Under the pieces are notes generated by a model. The model did no database searches, was not told the origin of the DNA, and saw only the letters and a program-made list of their open reading frames with translations. This document shows, piece after piece, positions 11,671 to 16,197 of a stretch of 64,000 nt of DNA. Both the position numbers and the translations under genes were made by a program. Source of the DNA: the human T2T-CHM13v2.0 reference genome, Homo sapiens; NCBI RefSeq assembly GCF_009914755.1, contig NC_060933.1. One strand, given 5' to 3'. Numbering within the stretch: position 1 is the stretch's first letter; every line of letters starts with the position of its first letter.

Positions 11671-12203
11671 TTTTATCATGTTAAAACACTTAACAAGTTT
11701 CTAAAGGATTTATCCTAGAATACCTTTTAGTACCAAGATTCCCTGTTATTTTTAAATAAAGATATATTACAACTCTCCAATCTATCTTCTTCAATTTAAA
11801 ATGTCTCATGTAAAGTCCATCCATATGTCCCTGTGGTGTTGCATTTCTGTCTCCAGCCACTTTCTCATGTGGCAGGGGTGGGGTTTGTTGATGGGACCAA
11901 GCCCTTAGGACAGCACCTCTGACTCCTCCTGCACGTGGGTAGCAAATGCACACCAGGTCCTGACCCTAAGGATTAAAGAAGACGTCAGGGAGCTCATCCT
12001 GGACTGGATTTAGAAGGCTAGATTAGGAGCCATCCAGGAGGGAAGCAAGCTTCTCTGCACAGGCTCAGAGCTGCCTGCGAAGTGGGGTGGTGGAGGGTGG
12101 CTGGTGGGGAGGGCAGCTGCATGGTCAGCAAATTATAAACGGCCGGTGTTTTCGGACCAGAGGGTAGATGTTACTGAGCCACTCAGAAGGATTTAGGGGA
12201 CAC

Positions 12204-12209
12204 TTTAAT
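12204..12209 (-). terminator. Candidate ATTAAA poly(A) signal for an antisense transcript from the CTAGE-like copy
   Basis: tttaat on + strand, about 330 nt downstream of a minus-strand acceptor at 12538. Confidence 0.3.
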
Positions 12210-13089
12210 TATAGCATCTATTCACTTCAAGGATCTTTTAGCTGCATGTTGTAGGGCTGGGGATAGTGATGACAAGGATATCCACAGGAACAAAAGCAGC
12301 AGGTTCTGTTTTCTTTTGAAGTGGGATGGGAGTGAAGCAGGGCTGCCCAGTTACTTCTGGTGTCTTGGGTGTAAGCCATCGTCATGGGCTGCACATGCTC
12401 CTGGGAGACAGGAGGCCCTGCACCTTCTCTATGAACTTCTTTACTTCTGGGGAAAGCCTGTTGCTGTTCCTGCCTGCTCTGGCCCGGGAGGCTGACTTGT
12501 TTGCTATGCAAGGCCCAGGCTCTCCGGGTGCTACTGCCTGTTGCAAAATAAGAAGCAATGGTGGCAAAATGTCCACCTCCCTAAATTAAACCACAAAGGT
12601 TAGGACCAAACTGTTAAAAATATGATCTTTGAGTGGTATGGTCTTGTTTTTGAGTGTATTTTGGCATTGTGTTCAAACCAAAGTTTATTCCAGCCAGTTT
12701 AATGTACTATGTTCAAGTAACAGCTCATAGATCAGAAATGGTCTCTGTTTTAAACCTTCCCATCCATATCAAACACAATGATGTTGAGGTTAAGAGGGGC
12801 CCTTTCTCTAAATGAAAATACAATACTTACCCTATATAATTTTGGAGGGCCCAAAGATGTGGAATCAGTGTATTTGTAAGAATTATATTAAACAATCTCC
12901 ATTTGATAAACAGTACCTTACAATCCTAATGCTATCTATCAAACTTGAGTGAGAGCAGTTTCAGCATCAACTCTTGAACGGTAGCTAAACTAACAAGAGA
13001 GTACCCAAATGTGCTCTAAAGGGAGCAGCAGCGGCTGATGTTCTGCCAAGTCTCTGAGCGTCCGGGACCCAACTACAGGGGAAATAGAA

Positions 13090-14620
13090 TAAAACAGGCA
13101 GGTGCTCTGTACCCAAGCCCTCACATGGTGACCTGCCTCCCTCCTGGGGGCCCAGTGTCCTCCTGGGGGCTTTCAGGCCCTGTGGGTTTTGGGCAGAGTC
13201 CCAGGAGCCAAAGGGCCACTCAGGAAAGGCTGAAACTTGGCTTCGCAGTCAGCCAGCTTCTGTCCGTAGTGGTGGTCATTTTCTTTCTGGAGCTCCTGGA
13301 ACGCTCTCTCAGTGGGCCTGGCAGCCATCCAGCCTTCCTGGGCCCTTTTCTTATGGAAGAGTATCTGCTTCTGAAAACTGGAAGTGTCTTCCTTCAATTC
13401 CTAGCGGTTGCAGGTCTGACACATGCGGTTTAAATACTAGTGCACCTTGCGAAGTCTCTGATCGAGGTCCAGGCAGTAGGCGTCCTCCTGTGTGGACTCC
13501 TACTGAGGCCCCATCACGGGTTCTTAGTGCAGTTCAGGCAGAGCAGGAAGCTTCAGCTGCAGCTTTGCGAGCTCTTTCCCCAACTGTGCCCTTGTGCCCT
13601 GCAGAGAGGCCTCTCGCCAATCGGACTTTGGATTTGTGCTGTGCGTTCTTTACTCCTTTGGAATTCTTCCCACAATTGCTTATTTGTTGCTTCAATCTTT
13701 CCTTCAGGACATTTGAAGGATGCACCTAAGTCACCGTCACCATCCACATTCTTCGGAGGAACTTGTAGCCCGGATGCTATGGGACCACCATATCCTACTT
13801 CCCTGTTCCCCTCCATTGCCAAGTCTCCATCCTGCACGTGGTTTCTATTGCTCTCCAGCAGATGCAGGATGCTTGGAGGGGTGTGGGACAGGGAGGTCAT
13901 TTGCCTCACTCCAGCATTCGTGGCCTGTTCCATTACTGTCTTTGCCTGCTCCGGCTTTTCATCTTCCCCTTCTTATCTGCAGGCATTGCTTCCATCTCAC
14001 AATTTCTTGGTCGGGCAGCTCTGCAGGTTGCCAGTGGTCAGTGCTGTCATTCAGATCATCTTTGCTTTGCCCCAGAAGATCTTCCCCATCATGCTGTGAA
14101 GCATGTGGGACCTGCTTTGTTCAGTCACTTGGGGAAATTCAGGAGGCCTGCTTTTCTGTGCTCTTTCAGAAGCTCACCTAGGTCCTGGTAGGAAGACCTG
14201 CTTGTTTCATTTGGAACCCTCAAGCAGGGGGTTTGGAGTGATCGAGGACTGGCCTCTGGCACGGGTGACATTAGGCCACCACAGGCTTGGGGTGCTAGCC
14301 ACATCTTGGATCTGGCCATTCTATGGACCTCACCCTGGGCTGAATACCTTTGGGCCGACTCCTCTTTTCTTCCCACTGTGCGTCATGAACGTGAAGGCCA
14401 CCACAGCAGTGCATGCCCAGATCACCCAGGGTTTCCATAGTTTCACTGCCACTAGTCCCATGATTCTGTACATCAGTAGTACTGCTGCCTACAGGGGGGC
14501 CAGCAGCAGCTGAGTAGGCATTGTGTGGTGGGCAGCAGGCCCTCCGTGGCTGCCAAGGGTTTGCCGCCACTTGCCAGTGGCCTGTGGGCCACAACTGACC
14601 ACTTAGAACCCTGTGGAGGG
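13090..14620 (-). pseudogene. Decayed intronless cTAGE5/MIA2 (CTAGE-family)-like retrocopy, antisense in FAM120A intron 3
   Basis: Colinear minus-strand peptide remnants against remembered cTAGE5: PWVIWACTAVVAF ~ PWELVICAAVVGF (14431-14393); VGRKEESA ~ VGREKKLA; QEIVRWK ~ QEAEVWK; LGASFKCPEG ~ LNASLKTLEG; EASLQ...KLQLKL..LPELH*E ~ QASLQ...KLQQKL..MTELYQE; FQKQILFHKKRAQEGWMAARPTERAFQELQKENDH ~ [35 protein letters not shown]. Stops at 14489, 13524, 13500, 13437 and 13401, plus several frameshifts. Confidence 0.85.
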
Positions 14621-14936
14621 TACCATCTCTAACACAAACAAGGGCTGCCATATTAGATGTGTGAGAATTAATACAGTACTATACATAAAACACTTAAAAG
14701 AGTGTCTAGCTAAGATATGTTAGCTAATATACCACCATGATCCTCAACAACAACAAAATAACAGTAACCTAATACACCGTTATAACTCACTGGAACATGT
14801 CCCTGTTTTGTGCATTCCTCATGCACAGACTTGGAAAGGCAGAGGCACTTACCAAAGGGGACTCTGCTGTTCTGCAGCCACCTTGTGACATACATGGAGG
14901 CTTTGAGAGCAGGGGCCTGGAGGGGAATGATAGAGA

Positions 14937-15915
14937 AGTCATGTCAATTTTAGGTTTTCCAGTACATGTAATAGAAATGTTTACACAGTACTGTAGTCTA
15001 TTAAGAGTGTAATGGCATTATGTCTGAAACACAAGATACATCCCTTAATCAAAAATACTTTCAAATGCTATGATCGCTTGAGTCTACAGCGAGTTGGAAT
15101 CATTTTGCTGGTGGAGGGTCTTGCTGATGGCTGCTGACTGATAAGGGTGGTGGTTGCTGGAGGTTGGGGTGGCTGTGGCCGTTTCAGGAAATTGGACAAC
15201 ATTCAAGTTTGTCACATCAATTGACTCTTCCTTTCATGAAAGATTTCTCTATAGCCTGCAATGTTATTTGATAGCAGTTTACCCACAGTAGAAATGTTTT
15301 ATGAAATTGGAGTTAATCTCAAACCCTGCCACTGCTTTATCAACTAAGCTTATGTCCTATTCTAAATCCTTTGCTTTTATTTTGATATCTTTGATAGCAT
15401 CTTCACCAGAAGTAGATTCCATCTCAAAAAGGTGCTTTCTTTGCTTGTCCATAACAAGTACTTCTTCATTTATTCAGGATTTATCATGAGATTTCAGCAA
15501 TTTGGTTACATCTTCAGGCTCCACTTCTAATTCTGATTCTCTTGCTATTTCCACCACATCTGCAGTGACTTCCTCCACTTAAGTCTTAAACCCCCTCAAA
15601 GCCATTCACGAGGGTTGGAATCAACCAAGTCTTCCAAGCTCCTGTTAAGGTTGATATTTTGACATCCTCCCATGAATCATGAATGGTCTTAATGGCATTC
15701 ACTTACTAGAGTAGTGAATTCTGTCCAGAAGGTTTTCAATGTGCTTAGCCCAGATGCATCAGAGGAGTCATTTTCTATGGCAGTTCTAGCCTGATGAAAT
15801 GTATTTCTTTAATAATAAGACTTGAGTGTCAAAATTACTCCTTTATCCATTATGGGTTGTGGAATGAATGTTGTGTCAACAGGCATGAAGACAACATTCC
15901 TTTCCTTGTATGTTA
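14937..15915 (-). mobile_element. Tigger1 DNA transposon, 3' portion of the transposase
   Basis: Long match to the remembered Tigger1 consensus (tgatggctgctgactga, aaaccctgccactgctttatcaactaag, catcttcaggctccacttctaattct); ORF 15809..15994(-) ends VVFMPVDTT..QP.MDKGVILTLKSYY, a pogo DDE motif. Confidence 0.9.
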
Positions 15916-15917
15916 AC

Positions 15918-16197
15918 ATGCAAGGGCTGGTCCCTCTGCAGGCTCTCGGGAGGATCCCAGCCCGTCCAGCCTCGAGCATCTGAGGCCCTGTCATGCTGCA
16001 TCACTGCCTCCTTTCTCCACATTTTGAGGACCCTGTGATTCCCTTGGGCTTGTCTGGGTAATCCAGGACAGGATTCTTATTTGGAGGTCAGCTGACAGGC
16101 AGCCTTCATTGAATTTTGCCACGCAATGCAGCATATTCGCAGGTTCTGGAGAGGAGGATGTGGACAGCTTTGGGAGGTCATTGTCCTGCCTACCGCA
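15918..16197 (-). mobile_element. MLT1 (ERVL-MaLR) LTR fragment
   Basis: gggtaatccagga...ggtcagctga...gcatattcgcaggttctgg...ggatgtggaca...cctgcctaccgca. Confidence 0.7.

What the first reader, a model, noticed from the sequence alone, without database searches (positions are those of the whole stretch)
13090..14620. Fossil cTAGE5/MIA2-like retrogene nested antisense in FAM120A intron 3
Seen: a repeat-free, GC-elevated 1.5-kb block whose minus strand gives colinear peptide remnants across several frames. A mutated start sits in perfect Kozak context (GCAGCC-ACG-G at 14547, reading (M)EGLLPTTQ versus MEEPGATPQ). It is followed by LLLAPL, a TM-like PWVIWACTAVVAF, coiled-coil segments, and the signature QILFHKKRAQEGWMAARPTERAFQELQKEN. 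There are at least 5 stops and several frameshifts, and no introns. Known: cTAGE5 (MIA2 locus) partners TANGO1 at ER exit sites and has produced many CTAGE retrocopies. Inference: identity looks far lower than for the young primate CTAGE copies, so this may belong to an old, divergent CTAGE-like lineage. It could have been functional before inactivation and might be intact in other mammals. I do not recall it being annotated here.
Basis: partly seen in the sequence, partly recalled or inferred. Interest (0 to 1): 0.8.

Follow-up and report, generated by a model that had tools for sequence, protein, structure and literature searches.

The report
Dead retrocopy of short cTAGE5-like gene
This is an already-annotated, long-dead processed pseudogene in a FAM120A intron; it was copied not from today's MIA2 gene but from a fast-evolving, shorter cTAGE5-like gene for which no intact human copy was found, although intact-looking versions exist in lemurs.

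Summary
RefSeq already annotates its core (13139-14409) as LOC100419516, "MIA2 pseudogene", so the locus is not new.

Added here:
- It is one of about 20 clear dispersed human copies at 73-82% DNA identity. They share AATAAA/poly(A) ends and have variable 5' truncation, as L1-type retrocopies do.
- The family tree is star-shaped, which indicates a single burst. The window copy lies 0.136 substitutions per site from the family consensus.
- The window copy lacks about 385 nt of 5' leader. It has 6 in-frame stops and 8 frameshifting indel events, and its substitutions fall evenly over codon positions. It probably never functioned at this site.
- The source mRNA had an open frame of about 495 codons without the proline-rich tail. 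It is only 40% identical to human MIA2 over a stretch where MIA2 is 92-95% conserved among placental mammals.
- The source groups with 320-536-aa predicted proteins, including an intact 495-aa "cTAGE family member 5-like" model in a sifaka. No intact human member was found.

Overall this is an ordinary pseudogene with a mildly interesting lineage history.

The parts
12660..14645 (-). Whole processed pseudogene (about 1.99 kb). It corresponds to family positions ~386-2381 of a 2.38-kb full-length member.
   Evidence: A single uninterrupted blastn alignment with the full-length chr18 copy covers window 14645-12659 at 76% identity. All sister copies stop matching the window at 14645 but continue to match each other for ~385 nt upstream.
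14548..14645 (-). Remnant of the 5' leader; the copy is 5'-truncated here.
   Evidence: Window 14645 corresponds to L004:1469, while full-length members start at L004:1084. The window's upstream flank matches no other copy.
14545..14547 (-). ACG codon, the positional homologue of the cTAGE5 start Met. ACG is ancestral to the whole human family.
   Evidence: Column counts are ACG 5, ACA/TCA 4, ATG 4, AGA 1 of 14 copies. The N-terminal alignment puts it opposite Met of human and dog MIA2 and of P0126 and P0142, and opposite Thr of the sifaka protein.
13062..14521 (-). Decayed open reading frame. It runs from the first in-frame ATG of the family frame (14521-14519, intact) to the position of the family stop codon (13064-13062, now CGG).
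   Evidence: The ATG is present in 11 of 14 copies. The family frame is described. The window has 6 stops and 8 frameshifting indel events.
14387..14488 (-). Hydrophobic N-terminal region, including PWVIWACTAVVAF (14431-14393). It is the homologue of the cTAGE5 membrane segment.
   Evidence: ORF translation is. At consensus level PWVIRACTAVVAF aligns with human MIA2 PWELVICAAVVGF inside a 264-residue colinear alignment, score 105 against a shuffle maximum of 67 (0 of 300 shuffles reach it).
13071..13607 (-). Second coiled coil plus the short Pro-rich tail. This is the only part that matches CTAGE/MIA2 directly.
   Evidence: tblastn to CTAGE residues 365-553 gives E=6e-12. The match to short-form protein P0126 is 42% over residues 322-489, E=1.9e-23.
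12660..13061 (-). 3'UTR remnant. The proximal poly(A) signal is mutated (AATGGA at 12903-12898 where the family has AATAAA). The distal AATAAA lies at 12689-12684, and the element ends at about 12660.
   Evidence: Junction alignment of 13 copies at the proximal site and 4 at the distal site. The family-consensus 3'UTR matches the genuine MIA2 3'UTR at 65% over 246 nt, 88 bits.
13139..14409 (-). RefSeq pseudogene LOC100419516 (MIA SH3 domain ER export factor 2 pseudogene).
   Evidence: Gene table supplied with the finding. It lies wholly inside the element defined here.

Best explanation
Window 14645-12660 (minus strand) is a processed pseudogene. An mRNA was reverse-transcribed and inserted, most likely by the LINE-1 machinery, into a FAM120A intron in antisense orientation. 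Judged from divergence, this happened very roughly 60-100 million years ago. The copy lost about 385 nt of 5' leader on insertion, carried no promoter, and has decayed neutrally since.

The mRNA did not come from MIA2 as it exists now. It came from a separate, fast-evolving 'short cTAGE5-like' gene. That gene descends from the cTAGE5-type transcript of MIA2: it has the same N-terminal exon register, membrane segment, second coiled coil and 3'UTR. It encodes only about 495 residues and lacks the proline-rich domain. The source fired a burst of at least 20 retrocopies. No intact member was found in the human genome, but intact-looking relatives exist in lemurs and in other, unnamed chordate proteomes.

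Shown here: the homology, the family, the ends, the lesions, the neutral substitution pattern, and the separate grouping on the tree.
Inferred: the LINE-1 mechanism, the age, and that the source gene was functional.
For: 1. Retrocopy hallmarks.
- It is intronless across at least four MIA2 exons.
- At the proximal junction, 9 of the 13 aligned copies end at the shared ...AATAAAG...TAATATAA site followed directly by an A-run. At the distal AATAAA site, the chr7 copy is followed by an A-rich run, while the window and the chr18 copy simply end there.
- 5' truncation points vary across the family: positions 1, 4-5, 10, 34, 40, 145, 386 (the window), 1323, 1514, 1551, 1585 and 1957.
- The copies lie on 11 different chromosomes (1, 2, 4, 7, 8, 9, 10, 12, 13, 18, 20), and none lies at MIA2 on chr14.

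2. A single burst. The FastTree tree of the 13 copies with at least 1500 nt has terminal branches summing to 1.771 and internal branches to 0.071, with a mean terminal branch of 0.136. The window's flanks match no other copy.

3. Neutral decay. The window copy lies K2P 0.136 from the consensus (0.115 at non-CpG sites). Substitutions by codon position are 73/69/66. There are 6 stops and 8 frameshifting indel events.

4. The source was coding.
- The consensus has a frame of about 495 codons.
- Its one stop shows the CGA-decay pattern (copies read TGA x3 and CAA x3).
- The apparent frameshift disappears when the copies are read individually.
- An alternative consensus is open for 386 codons, while the other two frames have 8 and 14 stops in the same span.

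5. The source was MIA2-derived but not MIA2.
- The family 3'UTR matches the MIA2 3'UTR at 65% over 246 nt, 88 bits. As a rough yardstick only, 100 shuffles of the window element (a different query from the consensus) reach at most 29.7 bits against the same target.
- The N-terminal 300 residues align colinearly with human MIA2, score 105 against a shuffle maximum of 67, 0 of 300.
- The source's coiled coil is only 65/162 = 40% identical to human MIA2. Over the same stretch human MIA2 is 92-95% identical to dog, tree shrew, lynx, whale, hippo and bat MIA2.

6. A separate group.
- A profile of 18 unaltered fragments finds 194 proteins at E<=0.001. Proteins of 478-529 aa score above MIA2 (123 and 109 bits against 76), with the match at residues ~320-460.
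- The coiled-coil tree of 73 sequences separates 29 short forms (support 0.918) from 44 MIA2, CTAGE and long forms (0.975). The human source pairs with the sifaka protein (0.969).
- The sifaka protein aligns with the source end to end at 46% identity, against 32% for human MIA2.

7. No intact human member was found. All short-form matches to P0126 contain stops, with 85 of 129 candidates scored.
Against: - No target-site duplication can be recognised around the window copy (best local score 5). The poly(A) tail at about 12660 is reduced to four A's.
- The window copy alone shows no detectable similarity to the MIA2 3'UTR (best 22.6 bits, within the shuffle range). Its N-terminal part is not detected by tblastn with CTAGE. 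Those links rest on a consensus built here from an 18-copy MAFFT alignment, which needed manual interpretation at one stop and one junction.
- Crude pN/pS against the consensus is 0.67 for the window and 0.52-1.01 across copies. That is below 1. I attribute this to uncorrected transition and CpG bias, because copies with 5-9 stops give the same values, but this was not tested with a proper model.
- The short-form group has moderate support (0.918, FastTree local support) and the tree was rooted at its midpoint. Species are known for only 2 of its members.
- The sifaka protein is a computational gene model. At 46% identity it need not be the orthologue of the actual source.
- In all 14 copies the upstream MEGLLP-type frame is 1 nt out of register with the long frame. 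The source may therefore already have been damaged at its N-terminus.
- The age estimate uses substitution rates that I recalled and did not measure here.
Confidence: 0.85

Rival explanations
1. It is a direct processed pseudogene of MIA2/cTAGE5 itself, as the RefSeq name implies, and looks divergent only because it is very old.
For: MIA2/CTAGE is the only intact human relative and gives a significant colinear hit. The family 3'UTR matches the MIA2 3'UTR. RefSeq names the locus a MIA2 pseudogene.
Against: The family consensus removes each copy's own decay, yet it is still only 40% identical to MIA2 where MIA2 is 92-95% conserved across placental orders. The consensus lacks the whole proline-rich domain. 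It groups with 320-536-aa proteins apart from MIA2. The window matches short-form P0126 better (42%, E=2e-23) than it matches CTAGE (31%, E=6.5e-11).
Confidence: 0.08
2. The copy was a working retrogene at this locus for some time, perhaps using the FAM120A intron context for expression, and was inactivated later.
For: At insertion it carried the full ~495-codon frame, with its ATG (14521) still intact. Crude pN/pS is 0.67.
Against: Substitutions are even across codon positions, 73/69/66. The same crude pN/pS is seen in copies with 5-9 stops. The copy is 5'-truncated, with no promoter of its own. Its terminal branch (0.132) is like that of the other dead copies. No RefSeq functional element overlaps it (hub table).
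Confidence: 0.05
3. It is an unclassified interspersed repeat or transposon fragment, not a gene copy.
For: It is multi-copy (at least 20 copies) with sharp shared termini.
Against: There is coding homology to cellular proteins over the full length. The structure is 5'UTR-ORF-3'UTR with AATAAA and an A-run. No terminal repeats flank it. Rfam gives 0 matches. The copy number is typical of a highly expressed gene's retrocopies.
Confidence: 0.02

Closest known systems
MIA2 / cTAGE5 (ER-exit-site cargo-export factor; chr14 parent gene)
   Same: The N-terminal exon register is the same (MEEPGVTPQ...LLLEEL against MEGLLPA...LVLEHL). So are the FPWE-type membrane segment, the second coiled coil (40% identity at source level) and a recognisable 3'UTR.
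   Different: The source ORF is about 495 aa, against 728-806 aa for the cTAGE5-type forms seen here. It has no proline-rich domain. The first coiled-coil region is replaced by a divergent acidic stretch (27% identity). It evolves far faster than MIA2, which is 92-95% conserved across placentals.
Young primate CTAGE retrogenes (intact 745-777-aa ORFs on chr7, chr6, chr18 and elsewhere)
   Same: They are also intronless derivatives of the cTAGE5 transcript dispersed by retroposition.
   Different: The young copies are 74-100% identical to one another, keep the proline-rich tail and many are intact. The window copy is 29-31% identical to them and falls on the other side of the tree.
'cTAGE family member 5-like' predicted protein of Propithecus coquereli (P0123, 495 aa), with related 320-536-aa models
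   Same: It has the same length and layout as the inferred source, aligns end to end (46%), has Thr at the old start position, and is the sister of the source in the tree (0.969).
   Different: It is intact, while the window copy is a ruin. At 46% identity it is not necessarily the orthologue of the source. Function, expression and gene structure are unknown.
Ordinary LINE-1-mediated processed pseudogene families (for example the KU70-derived 'Nuku' retrocopies, PMC8496227; search listing and abstract only)
   Same: No introns, poly(A) ends, variable 5' truncation, dispersed copies.
   Different: No target-site duplication is recognisable here. The parent lineage has no intact human representative.

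Membership tests
Processed (retroposed) pseudogene | Colinear with a spliced mRNA, no introns | tested here: met
   One contiguous tblastn hit covers CTAGE residues 365-553. MIA2 encodes these residues in separate chr14 exons (348-401, 398-435, 489-516, 516-560).
Processed (retroposed) pseudogene | Poly(A) signal and A-tail at the 3' end | tested here: met
   Family level: shared AATAAA plus an A-run at the proximal site. Window: distal AATAAA at 12689-12684, with the element ending in CCAAAA at about 12660 and the tail mostly eroded.
Processed (retroposed) pseudogene | Target-site duplication | tested here: inconclusive
   The best local match between the two flanks is 10 nt with 2 mismatches, score 5. 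At 12-14% divergence a short duplication may be unrecognisable.
Processed (retroposed) pseudogene | Disabling lesions and a neutral substitution pattern | tested here: met
   6 stops and 8 frameshifting indel events. Codon-position counts are 73/69/66.
MIA2/cTAGE5-derived sequences | Significant colinear protein similarity to cTAGE5 | tested here: met
   E=6e-12 for the window. Consensus against CTAGE gives E=5e-31 in a one-sequence database. The N-terminal half scores 105 against a shuffle maximum of 67.
MIA2/cTAGE5-derived sequences | C-terminal proline-rich domain (known from the literature as the Sec23/24-binding part; that role is recalled, not tested) | tested here: not met
   The family frame stops about 65 residues after the coiled coil and runs straight into sequence matching the MIA2 3'UTR. 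No match to CTAGE residues ~560-777.
Young primate CTAGE retrogene family | High identity (74% or more) to CTAGE/MIA2 proteins and grouping with them | tested here: not met
   29-33% identity. It falls in the opposite group of the tree, with supports 0.918 and 0.975.
Short cTAGE5-like group (320-536-aa proteins, including the sifaka 'cTAGE family member 5-like') | Groups with these proteins and shares the ~495-aa tail-less layout | tested here: met
   The family source is sister to the sifaka protein (0.969) inside the short-form group. The end-to-end alignment is 46% identical. The window matches P0126 at 42%, E=1.9e-23.
Short cTAGE5-like group (320-536-aa proteins, including the sifaka 'cTAGE family member 5-like') | Intact open reading frame | tested here: not met
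   The window copy is broken. Every human short-form match scored contains stops.

The most novel reading that the evidence does not exclude
Mammals, or at least primates and some other chordates, carry a previously undescribed, rapidly evolving gene group of about 500-aa 'short cTAGE5-like' proteins. These keep the membrane anchor and the second, partner-binding coiled coil of cTAGE5 but lack the COPII-binding proline-rich tail. They could therefore act as modulators or competitors of the TANGO1/cTAGE5 machinery at ER exit sites. On this reading the human lineage lost every working copy and keeps only fossils. The burst of at least 20 retrocopies, this one among them, would record strong germline expression of the gene before its loss.
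Probability: 0.35. Interest if true: 0.5.

Novelty: already known. Interest (0 to 1): 0.25.

Why it matters
For this locus the result matters little. It is an annotated, neutral pseudogene with no sign of present function, and it has no evident effect on FAM120A.

The wider value is for annotation and evolution. The label 'MIA2 pseudogene' hides the fact that about 20 human loci descend from a different, now-missing gene. That gene belongs to a distinct, fast-evolving, tail-less branch of the TANGO1/cTAGE5 family, with intact-looking members in lemurs and other species. Four full-text searches found no description of this branch. The two papers containing 'cTAGE5-like' use it for a sponge protein and for TANGO1-short (passages read).

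If the intact members are real genes, they would be natural tail-less variants useful for dissecting ER-exit-site assembly. They would also be a clear case of gene loss on the human lineage that is visible only through retrocopy fossils.

Tried and rejected
- Pfam scan of 10 window fragments: 0 families. This is uninformative, because the intact CTAGE protein itself gets no significant Pfam match and no PDB chain.
- Rfam on window 12000-16000: 0 matches.
- Word-indexed protein search with the 75-aa window fragment, longer proteins only: none at E<=0.001 among 39 candidates. This is weak evidence. The exhaustive profile search later found 194 proteins.
- Direct DNA and protein comparison of the family N-terminus with the young CTAGE copy: not significant. 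The DNA score is 28 against a shuffle maximum of 38, and 38 of 500 protein shuffles score at least as high. The link was established only against true MIA2 and through the short-form proteins.
- Target-site duplication search: nothing convincing.
- Segmental-duplication origin of the window copy: rejected, since its flanks match no sister copy. The flank matches between the other two chr9 copies are out of register with the element and look like common repeats.
- Local direct and inverted repeats in 12300-15000: only short two-copy chance-like matches.
I fetched only the terminal exon with its UTR and four coiled-coil exons, so MIA2 exon-by-exon DNA comparison is partial. MIA3/TANGO1 exons were not fetched.
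- The protein-atlas look-up of P0126 gave only chordate 'TGO1 protein (Fragment)' and MIA2-type clusters, with no finer taxonomy.
- One line (the 'window coord of ATG') came from a failed string search and is not used.
Full report
**What is there.** The ACG in GCAGCC-ACG-G lies at 14547-14545. The peptides TEGLLPTTQ, LLLAPL, PWVIWACTAVVAF and QILFHKKRAQEGWMAARPTERAFQELQKEN are there in minus-strand frames. The block is GC-richer (0.50-0.575) than its flanks (0.35 and 0.41).

tblastn of that protein against the whole 64-kb window gives one significant hit: residues 365-553 against 13607-13071 (-), 29% identity, E=6e-12. All other hits have E>=1. In MIA2 on chr14 those residues are split over several exons, so the window copy is intronless. 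Pfam's silence on ten fragments means nothing, because Pfam has no significant model even for the intact CTAGE protein. No PDB chain matches it either.

**True extent and nature.** None lies at MIA2 or at the young CTAGE loci.

- Homology between the window and its sister copies runs as one uninterrupted alignment from 14645 to 12659.
- At the 3' side, 9 of the 13 copies aligned at the proximal junction end at a shared AATAAA-containing site followed directly by an A-run. In the window this signal is mutated (AATGGA, 12903-12898). The copy runs on to a second AATAAA (12689-12684) and ends near 12660, as the chr18 and chr7 copies do.
- At the 5' side, the other copies remain homologous to each other for about 385 nt beyond the point that corresponds to window 14645. 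The window copy is therefore 5'-truncated.

A search with a full-length member (2.38 kb) returned 45 matches. I group these into 27 places. About 20 are clear members at 73-82% identity. The rest are short or more distant, at 72% or less. Start points in the family vary (positions 1, 4-5, 10, 34, 40, 145, 386, 1323, 1514, 1551, 1585, 1957). Shared poly(A) sites, variable 5' truncation, absence of introns and dispersal are the signature of LINE-1-mediated retroposition of an mRNA. No target-site duplication could be recognised around the window copy. Its flanks match no sister copy, so it is an independent insertion.

**Age and mode.** I aligned 18 copies and left out two clear members that are short end fragments. 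Each copy lies 0.106-0.208 (K2P) from the consensus. The window lies at 0.136, or 0.115 at non-CpG sites. A tree of the 13 copies with at least 1500 nt is star-shaped: terminal branches sum to 1.771 and internal branches to 0.071. This indicates a single burst from one source. The window groups weakly with two other chr9 copies (support 0.96). Using human-lineage neutral rates that I recall, and did not measure here, the divergence suggests very roughly 60-100 million years.

**State of the window copy.** Relative to the family frame it has 6 in-frame stops, 8 frameshifting indel events and 3 in-frame indels. Substitutions are spread evenly over codon positions (73/69/66), as expected for a sequence that was never under coding constraint at this site. 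A crude pN/pS is 0.67, which is below 1. The same crude measure gives 0.52-1.01 in all copies, including those with 5-9 stops, so I read it as a methodological baseline. A proper codon model was not run.

**The source transcript was coding.** The consensus carries a frame of about 495 codons, from an ATG (intact in the window at 14521-14519 and present in 11 of 14 copies) to a stop at the position of window 13064-13062.

- The only stop in that frame has the CpG-decay pattern of an ancestral CGA (copies read TGA x3 and CAA x3).
- An apparent frameshift was an artefact of my consensus. Most copies read through it in frame, and the window has a 1-nt deletion exactly there.
- A second consensus with a different gap rule is open for 386 codons, while the other two frames have 8 and 14 stops over the same span.

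**Which gene was the source?** The family is MIA2-derived. Its consensus 3'UTR aligns with the genuine MIA2 3'UTR, starting just after MIA2's stop codon (65% over 246 nt, 88 bits). As a rough yardstick only, 100 shuffles of the window element, which is a different query from the consensus, reach at most 29.7 bits against the same target. Its N-terminal 300 residues align colinearly with human MIA2 from the membrane segment onward, with score 105 against a shuffle maximum of 67, 0 of 300.

But it was not MIA2 as we know it. Over the second coiled coil, human MIA2 is 92-95% identical to dog, tree shrew, lynx, whale, hippo and bat MIA2. The family's source is only 65/162 = 40% identical to human MIA2 there. 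The source also lacks the whole proline-rich tail.

A profile built from 18 unaltered open-frame fragments of the human copies was run against 1.84 billion representative proteins. It found 194 proteins at E<=0.001. Several proteins of 478-529 aa score above MIA2 (123 and 109 bits against 76) and carry the match at residues ~320-460, which is exactly the inferred layout. One of them is named 'PREDICTED: cTAGE family member 5-like [Propithecus coquereli]' (495 aa). A related 333-aa model comes from Microcebus murinus. The sifaka protein aligns with the inferred source end to end at 46% identity, against 32% for human MIA2.

In a coiled-coil tree of 73 sequences, 29 short forms (320-536 aa) separate from 44 MIA2, CTAGE and long forms (supports 0.918 and 0.975). 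The human source pairs with the sifaka protein (0.969). In the human genome every short-form match scored carries stops, with 85 of 129 candidates scored. Only the young CTAGE genes are intact.

**The 'mutated start codon'.** In a multiple alignment the cTAGE5 start (MEEPGVTPQ...LLLEEL) lies opposite MEGLLPA...LVLEHL of short-form P0126 and MGGLLPA... of P0142. The window's TEGLLPTTQ matches that motif. Three of the four short-form N-termini match human MIA2 better than any of 500 shuffles.

But the ACG is not a lesion of this copy. Among 14 copies the site reads ACG x5, ACA or TCA x4, ATG x4 and AGA x1, which is the pattern of an ancestral ACG. The sifaka protein also has Thr there. In all 14 human copies this upstream frame is 1 nt out of register with the long frame, which begins at the ATG 26 nt downstream. 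The source may therefore have used the downstream ATG, or it may already have been damaged at its N-terminus.

**What is known.** RefSeq already annotates 13139-14409 (-) as LOC100419516, 'MIA SH3 domain ER export factor 2 pseudogene' (hub table).

Four full-text searches covered the locus name, 'MIA2/CTAGE5/MGEA6/cTAGE pseudogene', 'cTAGE family' with retroposition, 'cTAGE5-like' and TANGO1-family evolution. They found no description of the old family or of the short-form group. The two papers containing 'cTAGE5-like' use it for a sponge protein and for TANGO1-short (passages read). Subscription journals and pseudogene databases were not searchable.

**Verdict.** This is an ordinary, annotated, dead processed pseudogene. 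The modestly interesting by-product is that about 20 human 'MIA2 pseudogenes' seem to descend from a distinct, tail-less, fast-evolving cTAGE5-like gene for which I found no intact human member.

Noticed in passing
Outside the window: G000 chr21:36.59, 37.22, 37.24, 23.39 and 30.42 Mb; chr4:179.97 Mb; chr10:104.80 Mb; chr7:134.04 Mb: There are further short-form cTAGE5-like fossils that match P0126 (29-53% identity, all with stops). They are too diverged (72% DNA identity or less, or undetected) to belong to the window's burst family. They suggest older or parallel waves of retrocopies from the same gene group.
   Followed up: partly
Outside the window: G000 chr7:144.93, 145.04 and 145.46 Mb; chr6:132.90; chr10:131.04; chr13:49.11 and 51.12; chr18:22.60 Mb: Young CTAGE copies with fully open frames (open stretches of 803-863 aa, 74-100% identical to the chr7 ORF). 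Two chr7 copies in opposite orientation are 100% identical at protein level.
   Followed up: no
window 11800-12400: A GC-richer stretch (0.51-0.54) with strongly positive GC skew (+0.18 to +0.30) lies just beyond the 3' end of the element. It is unrelated to the retrocopy family.
   Followed up: no
Outside the window: G000 chr9:105568153-105568235 (about 80 kb before the window start): An isolated 83-nt match, 90% identical, to the distal 3'UTR of the family (family positions 2299-2381). It may be a tiny, heavily 5'-truncated retrocopy or a chance fragment.
   Followed up: no
L034 (chr9:102.75 Mb) and L036 (chr9:97.47 Mb): These two copies are each other's closest relatives (support 0.995, shared branch 0.025), and the window copy joins them (0.96). 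All three lie within 8 Mb on chr9. Flank matches between the first two are out of register with the element and look like common repeats.
   Followed up: partly
P0121 (142 aa) and P0124 (226 aa) in the representative library: The two strongest short hits of the profile search look like ORFs that gene predictors called on orthologues of the human pseudogene copies; P0121 closely resembles the chr18 copy. Some database 'proteins' of this group are therefore probably pseudogene translations.
   Followed up: no
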